Positions 10,216 to 64,000 of a stretch of DNA of 64,000 nucleotides are shown here, one piece after another. Location of the stretch: the sequence record MH816966; one strand, given 5' to 3'. The notes under the pieces were generated by a model. The model searched no databases. It had not been told where the DNA came from and saw only the letters and a list, made by a program, of their open reading frames with translations. The translations under genes and the position numbers were made by a program. The number at the start of each line of letters is the position of its first letter. Positions within the stretch are counted from its first letter, which is position 1. The stretch is from Escherichia phage FEC19.

Positions 10216-10244
10216 CTTTCTTTCCTTCGGTGATCAATACCTGC

Positions 10245-49656: not shown

Positions 49657-49744
49657 CCACCCTCAAATAAGTATTGTGTATTATATCTAATGAAAAAAAC
49701 TTAGGCAAACAATAATTATGGTTTGAATATGTATAACAACCGAT

Positions 49745-50030
49745 ATAGCCGCGCCTTAATTAGTGTGATACGGATGATACGGATAAAATGAGGCGTATTT
49801 TTATCCGTATCGGTGTATAAGCCGCGCTATCACTGGTGTGCTACGGATGATACGGATGATACGGATACTTTTCATATATAAGAGTTTATAAAAAAAATAA
49901 AATTAAATTAGATATATAATTTTAAATTAATTTATTTGAATTCCTATAAAGTATCGCGGCAACGCGTATCATCCGTATCATCCGTAAGATTCTTTTGAAA
50001 ACAACTACTTACTTGATACGGATGATACGT
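49745..50030. repeat. iteron-like 9-bp repeat array flanking an AT-rich core
   Basis: GATACGGAT units, direct at 49767-49784, 49843-49868 and 50015-50029 and inverted at 49803-49811 and 49967-49987, around an 80-bp core of over 80% A+T (49869-49950). Confidence 0.7.
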
Positions 50031-50073
50031 CATTATACGCGTAAAATCCTGCGGCAATCCATTGCCAGGCGAT

Positions 50074-50211
50074 TCAGTGAATATTAAAAAGCACTCCAGC
50101 AACTAAAACGCCAATCAGCATCGAGTCGTAAACAGCCCATTTCCAAGAAAGCAAAGAGTTGCAATTAATATTTCGCACTTTAACGTAACGTGACTGAATA
50201 ATCTTTTGCAT
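50074..50211 (-). CDS. small membrane protein (45 aa)
   Basis: Not in the ORF track; GAGGAAG RBS; C-terminal hydrophobic helix MLIGVLVAGVLFNI. Confidence 0.3.
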   Translation of the reverse strand: MQKIIQSRYVKVRNINCNSLLSWKWAVYDSMLIGVLVAGVLFNIH

Positions 50212-50221
50212 AACTTCCTCT

Positions 50222-62147: not shown

Positions 62148-62176
62148 TGGGTGTTGCTGATTTAACCGTGAATCGT

Positions 62177-62202
62177 GGGTCGCTGTGGCGGCCCTTTCTT
62201 TT
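62177..62202 (+). terminator. rho-independent terminator ending the plus-strand right block
   Basis: GGGTCGC-TGTG-GCGGCCC (one G-U pair) followed by TTTCTTTT. Confidence 0.6.
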
Positions 62203-62216
62203 GCCTGCCGCGCAGG

Positions 62217-62679
62217 AGTGTACTGCAAATTTACTGTGGGCACAAAATAGTACGGTACTGTCTAGGACTTTTTCTTTGAAAAGTTAGTGGACCAAATGTG
62301 TCGTATTTTGATTAGTGTACTGCAAATTTCATCAAGTACCAAAACGCACCAAAAGACCCATGCCCTAAAAACCACACGAACGCAATAATCAATCGCCGTT
62401 ACAGTTTCCAGCGTTACAATTAGAAAGCGAATGATTCGGCGCATAATAATATGAAGCATAATAGTTCGAAAGCGAATGATTGCGCGCAGAATAATATCGG
62501 TTGGGATTATTCTAGATGTCGGTAATTTCGCATGCGTACTATTTTCGGGCGAAGGGTCGGCATATTTCTCGTTTTAGTTCGGAACGAAGGGAAAGTTTTG
62601 CGCCTTTATAAAACAACGACTTGCGCGACCCGCCTTAACGTTCCGATATAGGTGTCTATATAAAACAACGACTTACGCG
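62217..62679. repeat. direct-repeat-rich noncoding region
   Basis: 16-bp AGTGTACTGCAAATTT at 62217 and 62314; about 30-bp GAAAGCGAATGATT...ATAATAT at 62424 and 62468; 22-bp TATAAAACAACGACTT(G/A)CGCGA at 62606 and 62658. Confidence 0.6.
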
Positions 62680-62802
62680 ATGTTCTCCATTTAACGTAAT
62701 ACCTGTTATGCGAACTAAGGCGCATCTCGATGAAGATTATGCGACGAAGAAGGGAAGGATAAAGGAGTTTTCGCGGAGAAGCGCATCGAGATAGGGGCGA
62801 AG

Positions 62803-62824
62803 AAAAGCCGCGACTAAGCGCGGC
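62803..62824 (-). terminator. rho-independent terminator ending the CpG-rich minus-strand gene set
   Basis: GCCGCG-ACTAAG-CGCGGC with a U-run following on the minus transcript. Confidence 0.55.
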
Positions 62825-62850
62825 CTATTAGTAACGGTGGGTGATTATAA

Positions 62851-63060
62851 TTAAAGGAATAATCCGGCGCGTTTAATTTGCCCAAGGACGTTATCGCGAC
62901 GGCGACGCATAACCGCGTATTTAACTTCTTCTTCGTATCCCCAGCCGCCGATGGATAACATCGAGTTCATATTATCGCATAATTCCTTAAGCTCGCGAAA
63001 CATATCGATTACGGCGGAGCGATGGGCGCGCGCGTTAAGAGAGTTATTCATATTAATCAT
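62851..63060 (-). CDS. hypothetical protein (69 aa), CpG-rich island
   Basis: ORF with codon composition distinct from the rest of the window; followed by a minus-strand terminator. Confidence 0.4.
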   Translation of the reverse strand: MINMNNSLNARAHRSAVIDMFRELKELCDNMNSMLSIGGWGYEEEVKYAVMRRRRDNVLGQIKRAGLFL

Positions 63061-63070
63061 TTTCTTCTCC

Positions 63071-63361
63071 TTAAAGGCTTACGATTTTAAAGAAAGTTAC
63101 TTCGCCGCCGAGTTGCGGTACAGCGATATATTCGCCGCCGATTTCGGTAATCGTATAAACGAAGCCGTTAATCGTTACGCGGTAGGATACGATGTCCTCG
63201 TCGCGATACTTGTAAAGGTCGAGGAAGTTGATCGGCTCATAAATAGCCTCGATAGTCGCGTCGACGTTAAAAAGATAGACGTGTTTAAGTTTTTCACCAA
63301 ATACATTGGAGTTTTCGGAAGTCTCGACGCGAGCGTCGCGGATAGCGGCTAAAGTAATCAT
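63071..63361 (-). CDS. hypothetical protein (96 aa), CpG-rich island
   Basis: ATG preceded by CTAGGAG RBS and the conserved promoter/leader cassette. Confidence 0.45.
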   Translation of the reverse strand: MITLAAIRDARVETSENSNVFGEKLKHVYLFNVDATIEAIYEPINFLDLYKYRDEDIVSYRVTINGFVYTITEIGGEYIAVPQLGGEVTFFKIVSL

Positions 63362-63429
63362 AATATTCTCCTAGTTAGTCGGGAGGGTAGCGACCTATTC
63401 GCTACCTCATCCCCTCTCGATATAAAACA

Positions 63430-63457
63430 TTATAGTCTTAGTGTACGAATAAGTAAA
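63430..63457 (-). promoter_or_regulatory. promoter of conserved right-end cassette (copy 1)
   Basis: Minus sense TTTACT-16-TATAAT with conserved flanks, upstream of 63071-63361. Confidence 0.5.
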
Positions 63458-63468
63458 GCACTTTTTCG

Positions 63469-63771
63469 TTATTTTGCGATAAAATATTTATAAGCCTTAT
63501 CGCCTTCTACGTCGATATACTCGACGATAATTAATTCTTCGCCGCGTGGCGTAACCGTCTCGATAAGGGTAACGGCTTCGTCGTCGGTCTTCGCGAAGCG
63601 GATTGCGCTACGTTCGGCATACTTAATATCGTCGAAGGATAATCCGACGAAGGCGACGGCGCGCGCTTTAATAATGCTCGTTTCGAGTTCCGCGTTAACG
63701 GCGGCGATAAGAGAGCGAACGGTTAAGCGGTCTTCGTCGTAAGTAAGGATAGAAGAGATTAAAGTGGTCAT
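63469..63771 (-). CDS. hypothetical protein (100 aa), CpG-rich island
   Basis: Start refined to ATG at 63771 after GGGAG; its own TTTACT-16-TATACT promoter. Confidence 0.45.
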   Translation of the reverse strand: MTTLISSILTYDEDRLTVRSLIAAVNAELETSIIKARAVAFVGLSFDDIKYAERSAIRFAKTDDEAVTLIETVTPRGEELIIVEYIDVEGDKAYKYFIAK

Positions 63772-63827
63772 AATAAAACTCCCGGTGCTAGTAGAAGGAA
63801 GGGCCATCGCCCGTCTCGATATGAACA

Positions 63828-63855
63828 AGTATACGCGAGTGTACGAAGAAGTAAA
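63828..63855 (-). promoter_or_regulatory. promoter of conserved right-end cassette (copy 3)
   Basis: Minus sense TTTACT-16-TATACT followed by the GTTCATATCGAGACGGG leader, upstream of 63469-63771. Confidence 0.45.
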
Positions 63856-63899
63856 GAAAAAAGATAAAATAATTTATCGCATTTTTATCGAAAAAGTGC

Positions 63900-63927
63900 T
63901 TTACTTTTTTCTACACTATATTATAAT
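63900..63927 (+). promoter_or_regulatory. promoter of conserved right-end cassette (copy 2)
   Basis: TTTACT-16-TATAAT driving a plus-strand gene whose ATG is at 63998 (truncated by the window end). Confidence 0.5.
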
Positions 63928-64000
63928 GTACTCATATCGGGACGGGATGAGTTAACGAATAGGTCGTTAACGCCTCTCCCCAACTAGGAGTTTATTATGG

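What the first reader, a model, noticed from the sequence alone, without database searches (positions are those of the whole stretch)
62203..62806. 600-bp noncoding region with three families of direct repeats between convergent terminators
No credible ORF on either strand. The region holds a 16-bp repeat (62217 and 62314), a 30-bp repeat with 44-bp period (62424 and 62468) and a 22-bp repeat with 52-bp period (62606 and 62658). It sits exactly where composition switches to CpG-rich. Candidate roles are genome terminus or terminal-repeat boundary, pac site, origin, or a noncoding RNA locus.
Basis: seen in the sequence. Interest (0 to 1): 0.6.

Follow-up and report, generated by a model that had tools for sequence, protein, structure and literature searches.

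The report
Terminal-repeat boundary of a Wifcevirus genome
This gene-free stretch holds one physical end of an E. coli phage chromosome (the inner edge of its 3.5-3.9 kb terminal repeat); the end was already mapped in relatives, but it also starts an unexplained 2 kb of DNA that almost lacks the dinucleotides CA and TG.

Summary
All three repeat families exist at the stated places. The 592-bp stretch 62205-62796 has no conserved ORF and lies between convergent terminators. CpG observed/expected jumps from about 1.0 to above 2 at about 62350-62400.

The window is a Wifcevirus (E. coli myophage, about 68 kb), 93-96% identical to Ro157lw, ECML-117 and Mansfield. In four of five relatives that show it, the inner end of the 3.5-3.9 kb direct terminal repeat (DTR) maps to window 62351|62352. 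Two of these were placed by PhageTerm. Origin and structured-RNA readings found no support.

The noncoding DNA is far better conserved than its flanking genes, so it is probably cis-acting. The role of each repeat is untested. The closest analogue is the untranslated repeat region at the inner end of phage T5's terminal repeat, but its defining DnaA boxes and A1/A2 genes are absent here.

One thing remains unexplained. The first 2-2.5 kb of the DTR has CpG about 2.0-2.5, TpA about 1.2 and CpA/TpG 0.14-0.55. The bias is strand-symmetric and survives in a 70%-identical allele.

The boundary is known. The composition domain appears undescribed.

The parts
62177..62204 (+). Intrinsic terminator that closes the rightward (tail-fibre side) transcription unit, 147 bp before the terminal repeat begins.
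   Evidence: Scan hit GGGTCGCTGTGGCGGCCC plus T-run. Annotated at the homologous place in WFC and WFH.
62217..62232 (+). 16-bp repeat copy 1 (AGTGTACTGCAAATTT). It lies outside the DTR; its first base is 135 bp from the cut.
   Evidence: Present in all 18 aligned relatives. Shares AGTGTAC with the spacers of the early promoters at 63440 and 63838.
62314..62329 (+). 16-bp repeat copy 2. It lies outside the DTR; its first base is 38 bp from the cut.
62308..62392 (.). Inverted repeat TTGATTAGTG / CAATAATCAA (9 of 10 complementary), with its dyad centre at about 62350, i.e. at the cut. Weak evidence.
   Evidence: By my own estimate (not a tool result) about 1.5 such pairs are expected by chance in the region, so only the centring is notable. 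Both arms are invariant in 18 relatives.
62351..62352 (.). Inner boundary of the direct terminal repeat, i.e. a physical genome end and terminase cut site (...AAAACGCACCA | AAAGACCCATGCC...). The DTR runs from 62352 past the end of the window.
   Evidence: Both DTR copies in the Ro157lw (3533 bp), SP13 (3899 bp) and WFH (3701 bp) records end here, as does the PhageTerm-annotated Mansfield DTR (3673 bp) (PMC6454146, PMC6753283). The WFC record ends 82 bp further out, at 62269|62270.
62410..62497 (+). Two tandem 43-nt units with a 45-bp period. Each holds ATTCG/CGAAT half-palindromes and a weak sigma-70-like site (TCGAAA-18-AATAAT).
   Evidence: This is the most variable part of the region (pi 0.07-0.08). 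Bas100 carries only one unit, through a 45-bp deletion.
62579..62680 (+). Two 25-nt repeats (62604-62628 and 62656-62680, period 52 bp). The first sits inside an 8-bp inverted repeat TCGGAACG / CGTTCCGA (62579-62586 and 62639-62646).
   Evidence: Among the best conserved parts of the region (pi 0.013-0.023).
62724..62792 (.). Perfect 9-bp inverted repeat ATCTCGATG / CATCGAGAT with 51 nt between the arms.
62797..62826 (-). Intrinsic terminator that closes the leftward early transcription unit of the DTR, 445 bp before the genome end.
   Evidence: Hairpin plus U-run in the fold. Annotated in Mansfield, WFC and WFH.
62352..64000 (.). The part of the DTR inside the window. It is a CpG-rich, TpA-rich, CpA/TpG-poor composition domain that covers noncoding DNA, three small ORFan genes and their promoters.
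   Evidence: CG o/e 1.98-2.32 and CA/TG 0.27-0.58 in 500-bp windows, which is 5-7 sd above and 6-9 sd below the 248 windows of the unique region.

Best explanation
The region is the gene-free junction between the unique part of a Wifcevirus genome and its 3.5-3.9 kb direct terminal repeat (DTR).

Shown, by homology to relatives: position 62351|62352 is the inner DTR boundary. It is therefore one of the two places where replicated concatemeric DNA is cut to make virion chromosomes, and it is the first or last base of packaged DNA. Transcription from both sides is stopped by convergent terminators before it reaches the end.

Inferred: the 592 bp are a cis-acting end region. They are kept much more constant than the neighbouring genes because proteins act on them there. 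The most likely actors are the terminase and replication machinery that nick at the boundary and duplicate the repeat, as in the T7-type model for DTR phages. Factors that hold or protect the DNA end at ejection are also possible.

The three repeat families (16 bp just outside the cut; 43 bp and 25 bp just inside) are candidate binding sites. My probability that the boundary is here is about 0.9. My probability that the repeats serve end formation or packaging, rather than regulation or ejection, is about 0.45.
For: - Identity of the genome: 27 Wifcevirus records match at 92-96% over 3 kb and 89-99% over the region.
- Boundary: the DTR end maps to the same base in Ro157lw, SP13, WFH and Mansfield. 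PhageTerm was used for Ro157lw and Mansfield (PMC6454146, PMC6753283). WFC and WFH are reported with a terminal repeat of about 3.7 kb (PMC6563267).
- Local match: the window is identical to Ro157lw and WFH over at least 40 bp either side of the cut.
- Assembly behaviour: Mansfield's gap-closing PCR primer lies at window 62285-62304, so the assembly broke here (PMC6753283).
- Constraint: pi is 0.042 in the noncoding DNA, against 0.16-0.22 at third and 0.08-0.12 at first and second codon positions of the flanking genes.
- Constraint, second line: the adjacent 96-aa gene falls to 67.7% amino-acid identity in CWP003, WFH and WFC, while their noncoding DNA stays 94.6-97.2% identical.
- Genes nearby: terS lies inside the DTR (E 9e-33 to E217 small terminase 7UXE).
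- Insulation: convergent terminators flank the region.
Against: - No reads of this genome were available, so the end is placed by homology only.
- The WFC record places the boundary 82 bp further out.
- Every repeat family has only two copies. One 43-bp unit is dispensable in Bas100.
- No motif longer than 9-10 nt is shared with the other DTR end.
- The TerS of the related phage E217 showed no appreciable DNA binding in vitro (PMC9611059).
- All relatives are within one genus at about 93% identity, so conservation has limited power.
- The flanking genes are mosaic accessory genes, which inflates the contrast with the noncoding DNA.
Confidence: 0.7

Rival explanations
1. Regulatory operator sites. 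The repeats bind a phage or host transcription factor that controls the early genes of the DTR. The location of the genome end inside the region would then be incidental.
For: - The 16-bp repeat shares AGTGTAC (TTAGTGTAC in copy 2) with the spacers of the early sigma-70-like promoters at 63440 and 63838.
- GTGTAC occurs only 13 times in 64 kb, and 4 of these lie within 62218-63839, all on one strand.
- The 43-bp units contain ATTCG-N4-CGAAT and CGAAT-G-ATTCG palindromes and weak promoter-like sites.
- A 69-aa gene that matches the PHROG family 'transcriptional regulator' lies next door.
Against: - The region lies between two terminators and has no conserved gene to regulate.
- The 69-aa regulator gene is absent from most relatives, yet they keep the repeats.
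- The promoter-like sites are only 9 of 12 matches.
Confidence: 0.2
2. T5-like injection pause or anchoring signal. The repeat-rich untranslated DNA at the inner end of the DTR halts or holds the entering chromosome while the early genes of the DTR are expressed.
For: - The architecture matches T5. T5 Repeat Region 3 (injection stop signal, iss) is untranslated, lies at the inner end of the 10.2-kb left terminal repeat (LTR), overruns into unique DNA, is better conserved than the neighbouring ORFs, and holds many direct and inverted repeats, some 52 bp apart.
- The T5 LTR also differs from the rest of its genome in CpG (1.31 against 0.79), and the switch is at the LTR boundary.
- The DTR here carries small ORFan genes behind strong sigma-70-like promoters, as expected of the first genes expressed.
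Against: - No DnaA box, even with one mismatch, in 62150-62850.
- No homologue of T5 A1, A2 or dmp.
- Which end enters first is unknown.
- Two-step transfer has never been reported for this genus.
Confidence: 0.08
3. Replication origin, with the direct repeats acting as iterons.
For: Several direct-repeat families lie in noncoding DNA. The 52-bp period equals five helical turns.
Against: - Each family has only two copies.
- GC is 0.40-0.48 throughout, so there is no AT-rich unwinding element.
- There are no DnaA boxes.
- A far more origin-like structure (GATACGGAT arrays around an AT-rich core) lies at 49.7-50.0 kb and at the other DTR end.
Confidence: 0.04
4. A small noncoding RNA is transcribed between the two terminators.
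For: Two weak promoter-like sites lie on the + strand inside the 43-bp repeats. The sequence downstream is conserved.
Against: - No Rfam match above noise: the best was NsiR4 at 18.6 bits against a gathering score of 40.
- No 150-nt window on either strand folds better than shuffles.
- There is no same-strand terminator downstream of the promoter-like sites.
Confidence: 0.04

Closest known systems
Annotated direct terminal repeats of Wifcevirus phages Mansfield (MK903282, PhageTerm, 3,673 bp) and Ro157lw (MH051335, PhageTerm, 3,533 bp)
   Same: Homologous DNA at 93-99% identity. The DTR boundary falls on the same base, and the same convergent terminators and gene-free stretch are present.
   Different: Those papers report only the length of the repeat. 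The repeats, the conservation of the noncoding DNA and the composition domain are not described in the papers read here (PMC6753283, PMC6454146, PMC6563267, PMC11990801).
Phage T5 left terminal repeat, untranslated Repeat Region 3 / injection stop signal (iss)
   Same: - It is a long DTR (10.2 kb) with small early genes.
- Its gene-free, repeat-rich stretch at the inner end of the repeat overruns into unique DNA.
- That stretch is better conserved than the neighbouring ORFs.
- Elements are spaced 52 bp apart.
- CpG is higher inside the repeat than outside.

   Different: - T5 has 8-10-copy repeat families, paired DnaA boxes and the A1/A2 genes. None of these is present here.
- T5 shows no CA/TG loss.
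- The proteins are unrelated.
- Two-step transfer is unproven here.
Phage T7/T3 concatemer junction (short DTR with flanking cis elements needed for end formation); from my own knowledge of the literature
   Same: A non-permuted genome with exact DTR ends. The cuts at the two repeat boundaries must be sequence-specific, and the repeat must be duplicated during packaging.
   Different: The T7 repeat is 160 bp and carries no genes. Here it is 3.5-3.9 kb and carries terS and the early genes. There is no sequence similarity. How long repeats are generated is unknown (stated in PMC6454146, citing Casjens and Gilcrease 2009).
Pbunavirus (PB1/E217-like), the sister genus in Lindbergviridae
   Same: Homologous small terminase (E 9e-33 to 7UXE), with terS far from terL, and a similar virion (PMC11990801, PMC9611059).
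   Different: Pbunaviruses are reported as headful-packaged and circularly permuted, or with contradictory ends (PMC12390725). The long DTR, this boundary region and the CA/TG-poor block therefore seem specific to Wifcevirus.

Membership tests
Long direct-terminal-repeat genome end (Wifcevirus) | The homologous position is where the duplicated terminal sequence stops in records that carry both copies. | tested here: met
   Ro157lw, SP13 and WFH all stop at window 62351|62352, with 0 mismatches between the two copies in Ro157lw and SP13. WFC stops 82 bp further out.
Long direct-terminal-repeat genome end (Wifcevirus) | Read-start peaks and two-fold coverage in sequencing reads of virion DNA. 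| not testable with these tools
   No reads were available. Reported for the relatives Ro157lw and Mansfield by PhageTerm (PMC6454146, PMC6753283).
Long direct-terminal-repeat genome end (Wifcevirus) | The sequence around the cut is the same as in the relatives with mapped ends. | tested here: met
   The 20-mers on both sides of the cut in Ro157lw, Mansfield and WFH are found exactly at 62332 and 62352. The stretch is nearly invariant in 18 relatives.
T5 injection stop signal / LTR Repeat Region 3 | An untranslated, multi-repeat region at the inner end of a long DTR that overlaps the boundary. | tested here: met
   445 bp lie inside and 147 bp outside the DTR, with three direct and four inverted repeat families. 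T5 for comparison.
T5 injection stop signal / LTR Repeat Region 3 | Better conserved than the neighbouring ORFs. | tested here: met
   pi is 0.042 against 0.08-0.22. Noncoding DNA is 94.6-97.2% identical where the adjacent protein is 67.7% identical.
T5 injection stop signal / LTR Repeat Region 3 | Paired DnaA boxes (TTWTNCACA). | tested here: not met
   None in 62150-62850, even with one mismatch. The whole window has 4 exact matches, fewer than chance (7.65), and none near the region.
T5 injection stop signal / LTR Repeat Region 3 | Pre-early genes A1 and A2 are encoded in the repeat. | tested here: not met
   tblastn of T5 A1, A2 and dmp against the window and both Ro157lw ends gave nothing below E = 0.4.
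T5 injection stop signal / LTR Repeat Region 3 | Two-step DNA transfer. | not testable with these tools
   Needs infection experiments.
T7-type short-DTR concatemer junction | A terminal repeat of roughly 100-500 bp without genes. | tested here: not met
   The repeat is 3533-3899 bp and carries terS and at least 6 genes.
Iteron-type replication origin | Three or more iterons, an AT-rich unwinding element and DnaA boxes. | tested here: not met
   Only two-copy families, GC 0.40-0.48 and no DnaA box.
Described structured RNA family (Rfam 15) | A match at the gathering score, or folding stability above shuffles. | tested here: not met
   The best hit was 18.6 bits against a gathering score of 40. 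z-scores ranged from -1.8 to +1.0 over 18 windows.

The most novel reading that the evidence does not exclude
The first 2-2.5 kb of DNA counted from this genome end is under sustained, strand-symmetric, DNA-level selection against the dinucleotides CA and TG. CG and TA take their place, in genes, promoters and spacers alike.

The proposed reason is that this is the DNA that enters the cell first. It would have to survive, or be ignored by, a sequence-reading host or phage activity (a nuclease, a defence system or a silencing protein) before the early proteins it encodes can act.

Under this reading the conserved repeat region at the tip is the matching end-holding or entry-pause element, a second and mechanistically different instance of what T5 does.
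Probability: 0.15. Interest if true: 0.8.

Novelty: new member of a known kind. Interest (0 to 1): 0.4.

Why it matters
As a genome end, the finding is routine. It tells annotators where to open the record and where the packaged DNA starts.

Two things go beyond that.

First, nobody knows how long terminal repeats are cut and duplicated. A compact 590-bp, strongly conserved boundary region with a few discrete repeats is a tractable substrate for finding the signals.

Second, the composition domain is extreme. A divergent allele of one gene has CA/TG o/e of 0.14. The domain is confined to the end-proximal 2-2.5 kb and starts within about 50 bp of the physical end. It is strand-symmetric, and it has been maintained through 30% sequence divergence.

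A pattern like that usually marks a sequence-specific pressure on DNA. If the pressure is tied to DNA entry or early defence evasion, it would give a sequence signature for 'first-in' DNA. It might also help explain the very fast infection cycle and the restriction resistance reported for this genus (PMC11990801). The milder CpG step at the T5 repeat boundary hints that this may not be unique.

Tried and rejected
- Rfam scan at a permissive threshold: nothing.
- RNA folding of 18 overlapping windows on both strands: no excess stability.
- Genome-wide search for each repeat motif with mismatches: only the local copies plus chance-level hits, so these are not dispersed promoters.
- Shared k-mers between the two DTR boundaries: nothing longer than 9-10 nt.
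- DnaA boxes and T5 A1/A2/dmp homologues: none.
- Distant blastn of the region against 50,697 phage records: only the 27 Wifcevirus records.
- An exact 26-mer against IMG/VR: two contigs, both Wifcevirus-sized.
- PHROGs and Pfam on the six flanking proteins: one generic 'transcriptional regulator' PHROG family for the 69-aa protein and two PHROG families of unknown function for the 64-aa protein; Pfam gave nothing.
- tblastn and the 5.8-billion-protein search with the DTR ORFans: genus-only hits, so the origin of the CpG-rich block cannot be traced.
- Horizontal transfer as the sole cause of the composition: rejected as sufficient, because a 70%-identical allele keeps and even sharpens the bias.
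- RNA-level or codon-level causes (start-codon or MazF-site avoidance): rejected as sufficient, because TG and CA are both depleted on the sense strand and in noncoding DNA.
- The similarity of T5's repeat GTGCAAATCCGAC to the Wifcevirus motif ATAGTGCAAAT: noted, but after allowing for the many repeat families compared it is only borderline (about 0.05 by my estimate).

Full report
**1. The observation**

- A 16-bp exact repeat, AGTGTACTGCAAATTT, at 62217 and 62314.
- Two tandem 43-nt units at 62410 and 62455, 81% identical, with an exact 14-bp core. The period is 45 bp, not 44.
- Two 25-nt units at 62604 and 62656, 92% identical, period 52 bp.

These are more than chance gives. In 2000 first-order Markov simulations of the 604 bp, the longest exact repeat never exceeded 14 nt (16 observed). 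No simulation had more than 3 repeated 12-mers (13 observed). None of the motifs recurs elsewhere in the window above chance.

The region is bracketed by convergent intrinsic terminators. One is on the + strand at 62177-62204. The other is on the - strand at 62826-62797 (hairpin visible). Both are annotated at the homologous sites of WFC, WFH and Mansfield.

Only ORFs of 31-65 aa occur. The longest loses its start codon in Bas100 and is frameshifted in SP13. Curated annotations of relatives leave the stretch empty.

The CpG switch is real. Observed/expected CpG is 0.75-1.0 up to about 62400 and 1.9-2.5 from there to the end of the window.

**2. What the window is**

The last 3 kb match 27 phage records at 92-96% identity. 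All are Wifcevirus, a genus of E. coli and Shigella myophages of about 68 kb. Examples are Ro157lw, ECML-117, Mansfield, WFC, WFH and Bas98-101. The 703 bp around the finding match the same 27 records and nothing else, even in sensitive mode.

**3. The genome end**

Three records carry both copies of the direct terminal repeat (DTR).
- In Ro157lw (3533 bp) and SP13 (3899 bp) the two copies are identical. The inner end maps to window 62351|62352, in ...AAAACGCACCA|AAAGACCCATGCC....
- WFH (3701 bp) ends at the same base.
- Mansfield, whose 3,673-bp DTR is annotated from PhageTerm, also ends there (PMC6753283).

The Ro157lw ends were likewise predicted by PhageTerm, which classed the phage with the long-DTR phage T5 (PMC6454146). 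WFC and WFH were reported with a terminal repeat of about 3.7 kb (PMC6563267).

One record disagrees. The deposited WFC repeat (3784 bp) ends 82 bp further out, at window 62269|62270. I cannot tell whether that reflects method or biology.

The window runs in reverse orientation to these records. It starts about 2.3 kb inside the unique region and contains no second DTR copy. In window orientation the DTR therefore begins at 62352 and continues past 64000.

**4. Evidence that the noncoding DNA is functional**

I aligned 18 Wifcevirus sequences and measured pairwise diversity.
- Diversity is 0.042 across 62205-62796.
- In the flanking genes it is 0.16-0.22 at third codon positions and 0.08-0.12 at first and second positions.
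- The most constant stretches are 62250-62400, around the cut (0.02-0.03), and 62550-62700, the 25-nt repeats (0.014-0.035).
- The 43-nt repeats are the most variable (0.07-0.08). Bas100 has lost exactly one unit.

A second line agrees. The neighbouring 96-aa gene drops to 67.7% amino-acid identity in CWP003, WFH and WFC, yet the noncoding region of those phages is 94.6-97.2% identical to the window.

Caveats: all relatives belong to one genus, and the flanks are mosaic accessory genes. The 69-aa gene at 62851-63060 is present in only some relatives.

**5. Readings that found no support**

Structured RNA:
- The best Rfam hit is 18.6 bits against a gathering score of 40.
- All 18 overlapping 150-nt windows on both strands fold no better than dinucleotide shuffles, with z from -1.8 to +1.0.

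Replication origin:
- Each repeat family has two copies only.
- GC stays at 0.40-0.48.
- There is no DnaA box, even with one mismatch.

A much more origin-like structure exists elsewhere (section 8).

**6. How it most likely works**

Shown: the cut lies 147 bp past the + terminator and 445 bp before the - terminator. The first bases of the 16-bp repeats lie 135 and 38 bp outside the DTR. The 43-nt repeats lie 59-146 bp inside, and the 25-nt repeats begin 253 and 305 bp inside. A 10-nt inverted repeat (62308-62317 and 62383-62392, 9 of 10 complementary) is centred on about 62350, at the cut. By my own estimate about 1.5 such pairs are expected by chance in a region of this size, so only the centring is suggestive.

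Inferred: in non-permuted DTR phages the concatemer holds one copy of the repeat between unique segments. Both boundaries must therefore be nicked site-specifically, and the repeat must be copied during packaging. This is the T7/T3 model, cited from my own knowledge. For long repeats the mechanism is unknown (PMC6454146, citing Casjens and Gilcrease). A conserved, transcriptionally insulated region with discrete repeats on both sides of the cut is what such a process would need.

The small terminase gene lies inside the DTR, 360 bp from its other end (E 9e-33 to E217 TerS, PDB 7UXE). By analogy with lambda, where the terminase-binding site and the small-terminase gene are packaged first, packaging may start at that other end and finish at 62352. 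That would make this the last end in and the first end out. This step is pure inference.

Against a simple TerS-site model: the two DTR ends share no long motif, and E217 TerS did not bind DNA appreciably in vitro (PMC9611059).

A regulatory reading of the 16-bp repeat also has some support. It shares AGTGTAC with the spacers of the early promoters at 63440 and 63838. GTGTAC is rare in the window (13 copies), and 4 of these lie within 62218-63839 on one strand.

**7. The composition domain (unexplained)**

I took the full DTR from Ro157lw. Dinucleotide observed/expected values are as follows:

| Stretch | CG | TA | CA/TG |
|---|---|---|---|
| First 2.6 kb of the DTR, counted from the 62352 end | 1.93 | 1.16 | 0.52 |
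| Last 0.9 kb of the DTR (around terS) | 1.09 | 0.89 | 1.19 |
| Unique 62 kb | 1.10 | 0.66 | 1.18 |

- The last 0.9 kb has normal CG and CA/TG; its TA (0.89) lies between the other two.
- Mansfield, WFC and SP13 show the same profile.
- In the window, 500-bp windows of the DTR part lie 5-7 sd above (CG) and 6-9 sd below (CA/TG) the 248 windows of the unique region.
- The bias holds in the noncoding 62352-62796 (CG 2.03, TG 0.59, CA 0.66).
- It holds on the sense strand of each gene for both TG (0.12-0.68) and CA (0.23-0.30). It is therefore strand-symmetric and not a codon or RNA-motif effect.
- Even the early promoters use TTTACT rather than TTGACA as the -35 element.
- The divergent allele of the 96-aa gene in WFH and CWP003 is 70% identical at the nucleotide level. 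It has CG 2.31 and CA/TG 0.14. The pressure has therefore been maintained, not inherited once.
- The proteins are genus-restricted ORFans, so no donor can be named.

I have no tested explanation. Candidates are avoidance of a sequence-reading nuclease, defence system or DNA-binding protein by the first-entering DNA, or a context-specific mutational process. Neither was tested.

Phage T5 gives a partial parallel. Its 10.2-kb terminal repeat has CpG 1.31 against 0.79 in the next 19.8 kb. The step falls at about 9.8-10.2 kb, next to the repeat boundary at 10219. T5 shows no CA/TG loss.

**8. Comparison with what is known**

The DTR and its boundary are already published and annotated for this genus, so that part is known.

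The nearest functional analogue is T5's untranslated Repeat Region 3, the injection stop signal.
- Shared: it lies at the inner end of the terminal repeat and overruns into unique DNA. It is more conserved than the neighbouring ORFs. It is full of direct and inverted repeats, some with 52-bp spacing.
- Failed membership features: no DnaA boxes and no A1 or A2 genes.
- Two-step transfer cannot be tested here.

I therefore say it resembles T5 in layout, and I do not file it as an injection stop signal.

T7's concatemer junction is the mechanistic model for end formation, but its repeat is 160 bp and carries no genes.

The sister genus Pbunavirus has a homologous TerS but is reported as headful and permuted (PMC12390725). 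The DTR, this boundary region and the CA/TG-poor block thus look specific to Wifcevirus.

**9. Other things seen**

- The other DTR end lies outside the window, in an 860-bp gene-free region. That region is rich in ATCCGTA and GATACG repeats around an AT-rich core.
- A colinear paralogue of that structure lies inside the window at 49,660-50,220, with matches of 13-25 nt at 95-100%. It is the CpG maximum of the unique region.
- The 11-mer ATAGTGCAAAT has no match with up to one mismatch in the 64-kb window. It occurs 7-9 times on one strand in the 1.3 kb around terS in four relatives.
- T5's nine-to-ten-copy repeat at its repeat boundary is tGTGCAAATCCGAC, which shares the 8-mer GTGCAAAT. Given the number of repeat families compared, this may be coincidence.

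**10. Verdict**

As a kind of thing it is known, and here it is a new, uncharacterised member.

The mechanism of the individual repeats is unresolved. Interest is moderate (0.4). It comes mainly from the extreme composition domain anchored at the genome end, which I could describe but not explain.

Noticed in passing
window 49660-50220: A 565-bp intergenic region carries arrays of GATACGGAT / ATCCGTATC around an AT-rich core. It matches, in the same order, the DNA around the other DTR end of Ro157lw (13-25-nt matches at 95-100%). It has the highest CpG o/e of the unique region (1.85). It is a candidate origin or late-promoter hub, and it is a paralogue of a terminus region.
   Followed up: partly
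L002 6654-7538 (Ro157lw DTR, window orientation); also L001, L008 and the reverse complement of L004: ATAGTGCAAAT occurs 7-9 times, all on one strand, within 1.3 kb around the small terminase gene. It has no match (up to one mismatch) in the whole 64-kb window. It shares the 8-mer GTGCAAAT with the roughly 10-copy repeat tGTGCAAATCCGAC that straddles T5's terminal-repeat boundary.
   Followed up: partly
window 62352-64000 and the L002 DTR: In a 70%-identical allele of the 96-aa gene (WFH, CWP003), CA/TG o/e is 0.14 and CpG is 2.31. In the 303-nt gene at 63469-63771, TG occurs only twice and CA five times.
   Followed up: yes
L023 (phage T5) 1-30000: T5's left terminal repeat has CpG o/e 1.31 against 0.79 in the following 19.8 kb. 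The step is at about 9.8-10.2 kb, next to the repeat boundary (10219). CA/TG is unchanged.
   Followed up: partly
window 63388-63471 and 63810-63969: There are three copies of an early promoter cassette, CTTTACTT-N-TTCGTACACT-N5-TATAAT (- strand at 63457 and 63855, + strand at 63900). Each is followed by a conserved leader with a stem (36-nt and 33-nt inverted copies), and they drive divergent small ORFan genes.
   Followed up: partly
window 62163-62185: The heptamer TCGTGGG just upstream of the + terminator varies in copy number between relatives. The window has about two copies and Mansfield about six.
   Followed up: no
L008/L009 (phage WFC record): The deposited WFC terminal repeat (3784 bp) ends 82 bp further out (window 62269|62270) than in the four other relatives, including WFH from the same study.
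   Followed up: partly
window 62851-63060: A 69-aa gene matching a PHROG 'transcriptional regulator' family is present in the window, Ro157lw, ECML-117, Eco4M-7, F13 and SP13. It is absent from the other aligned relatives, so it is an insertion/deletion polymorphism right beside the conserved noncoding region.
   Followed up: partly
L002 7052-7525: The small terminase gene sits inside the terminal repeat, 360 bp from the outer end (E 9e-33 to E217 TerS, PDB 7UXE). Every virion therefore carries two copies. The Pbunavirus relatives with the homologous TerS are reported as headful packagers.
   Followed up: partly
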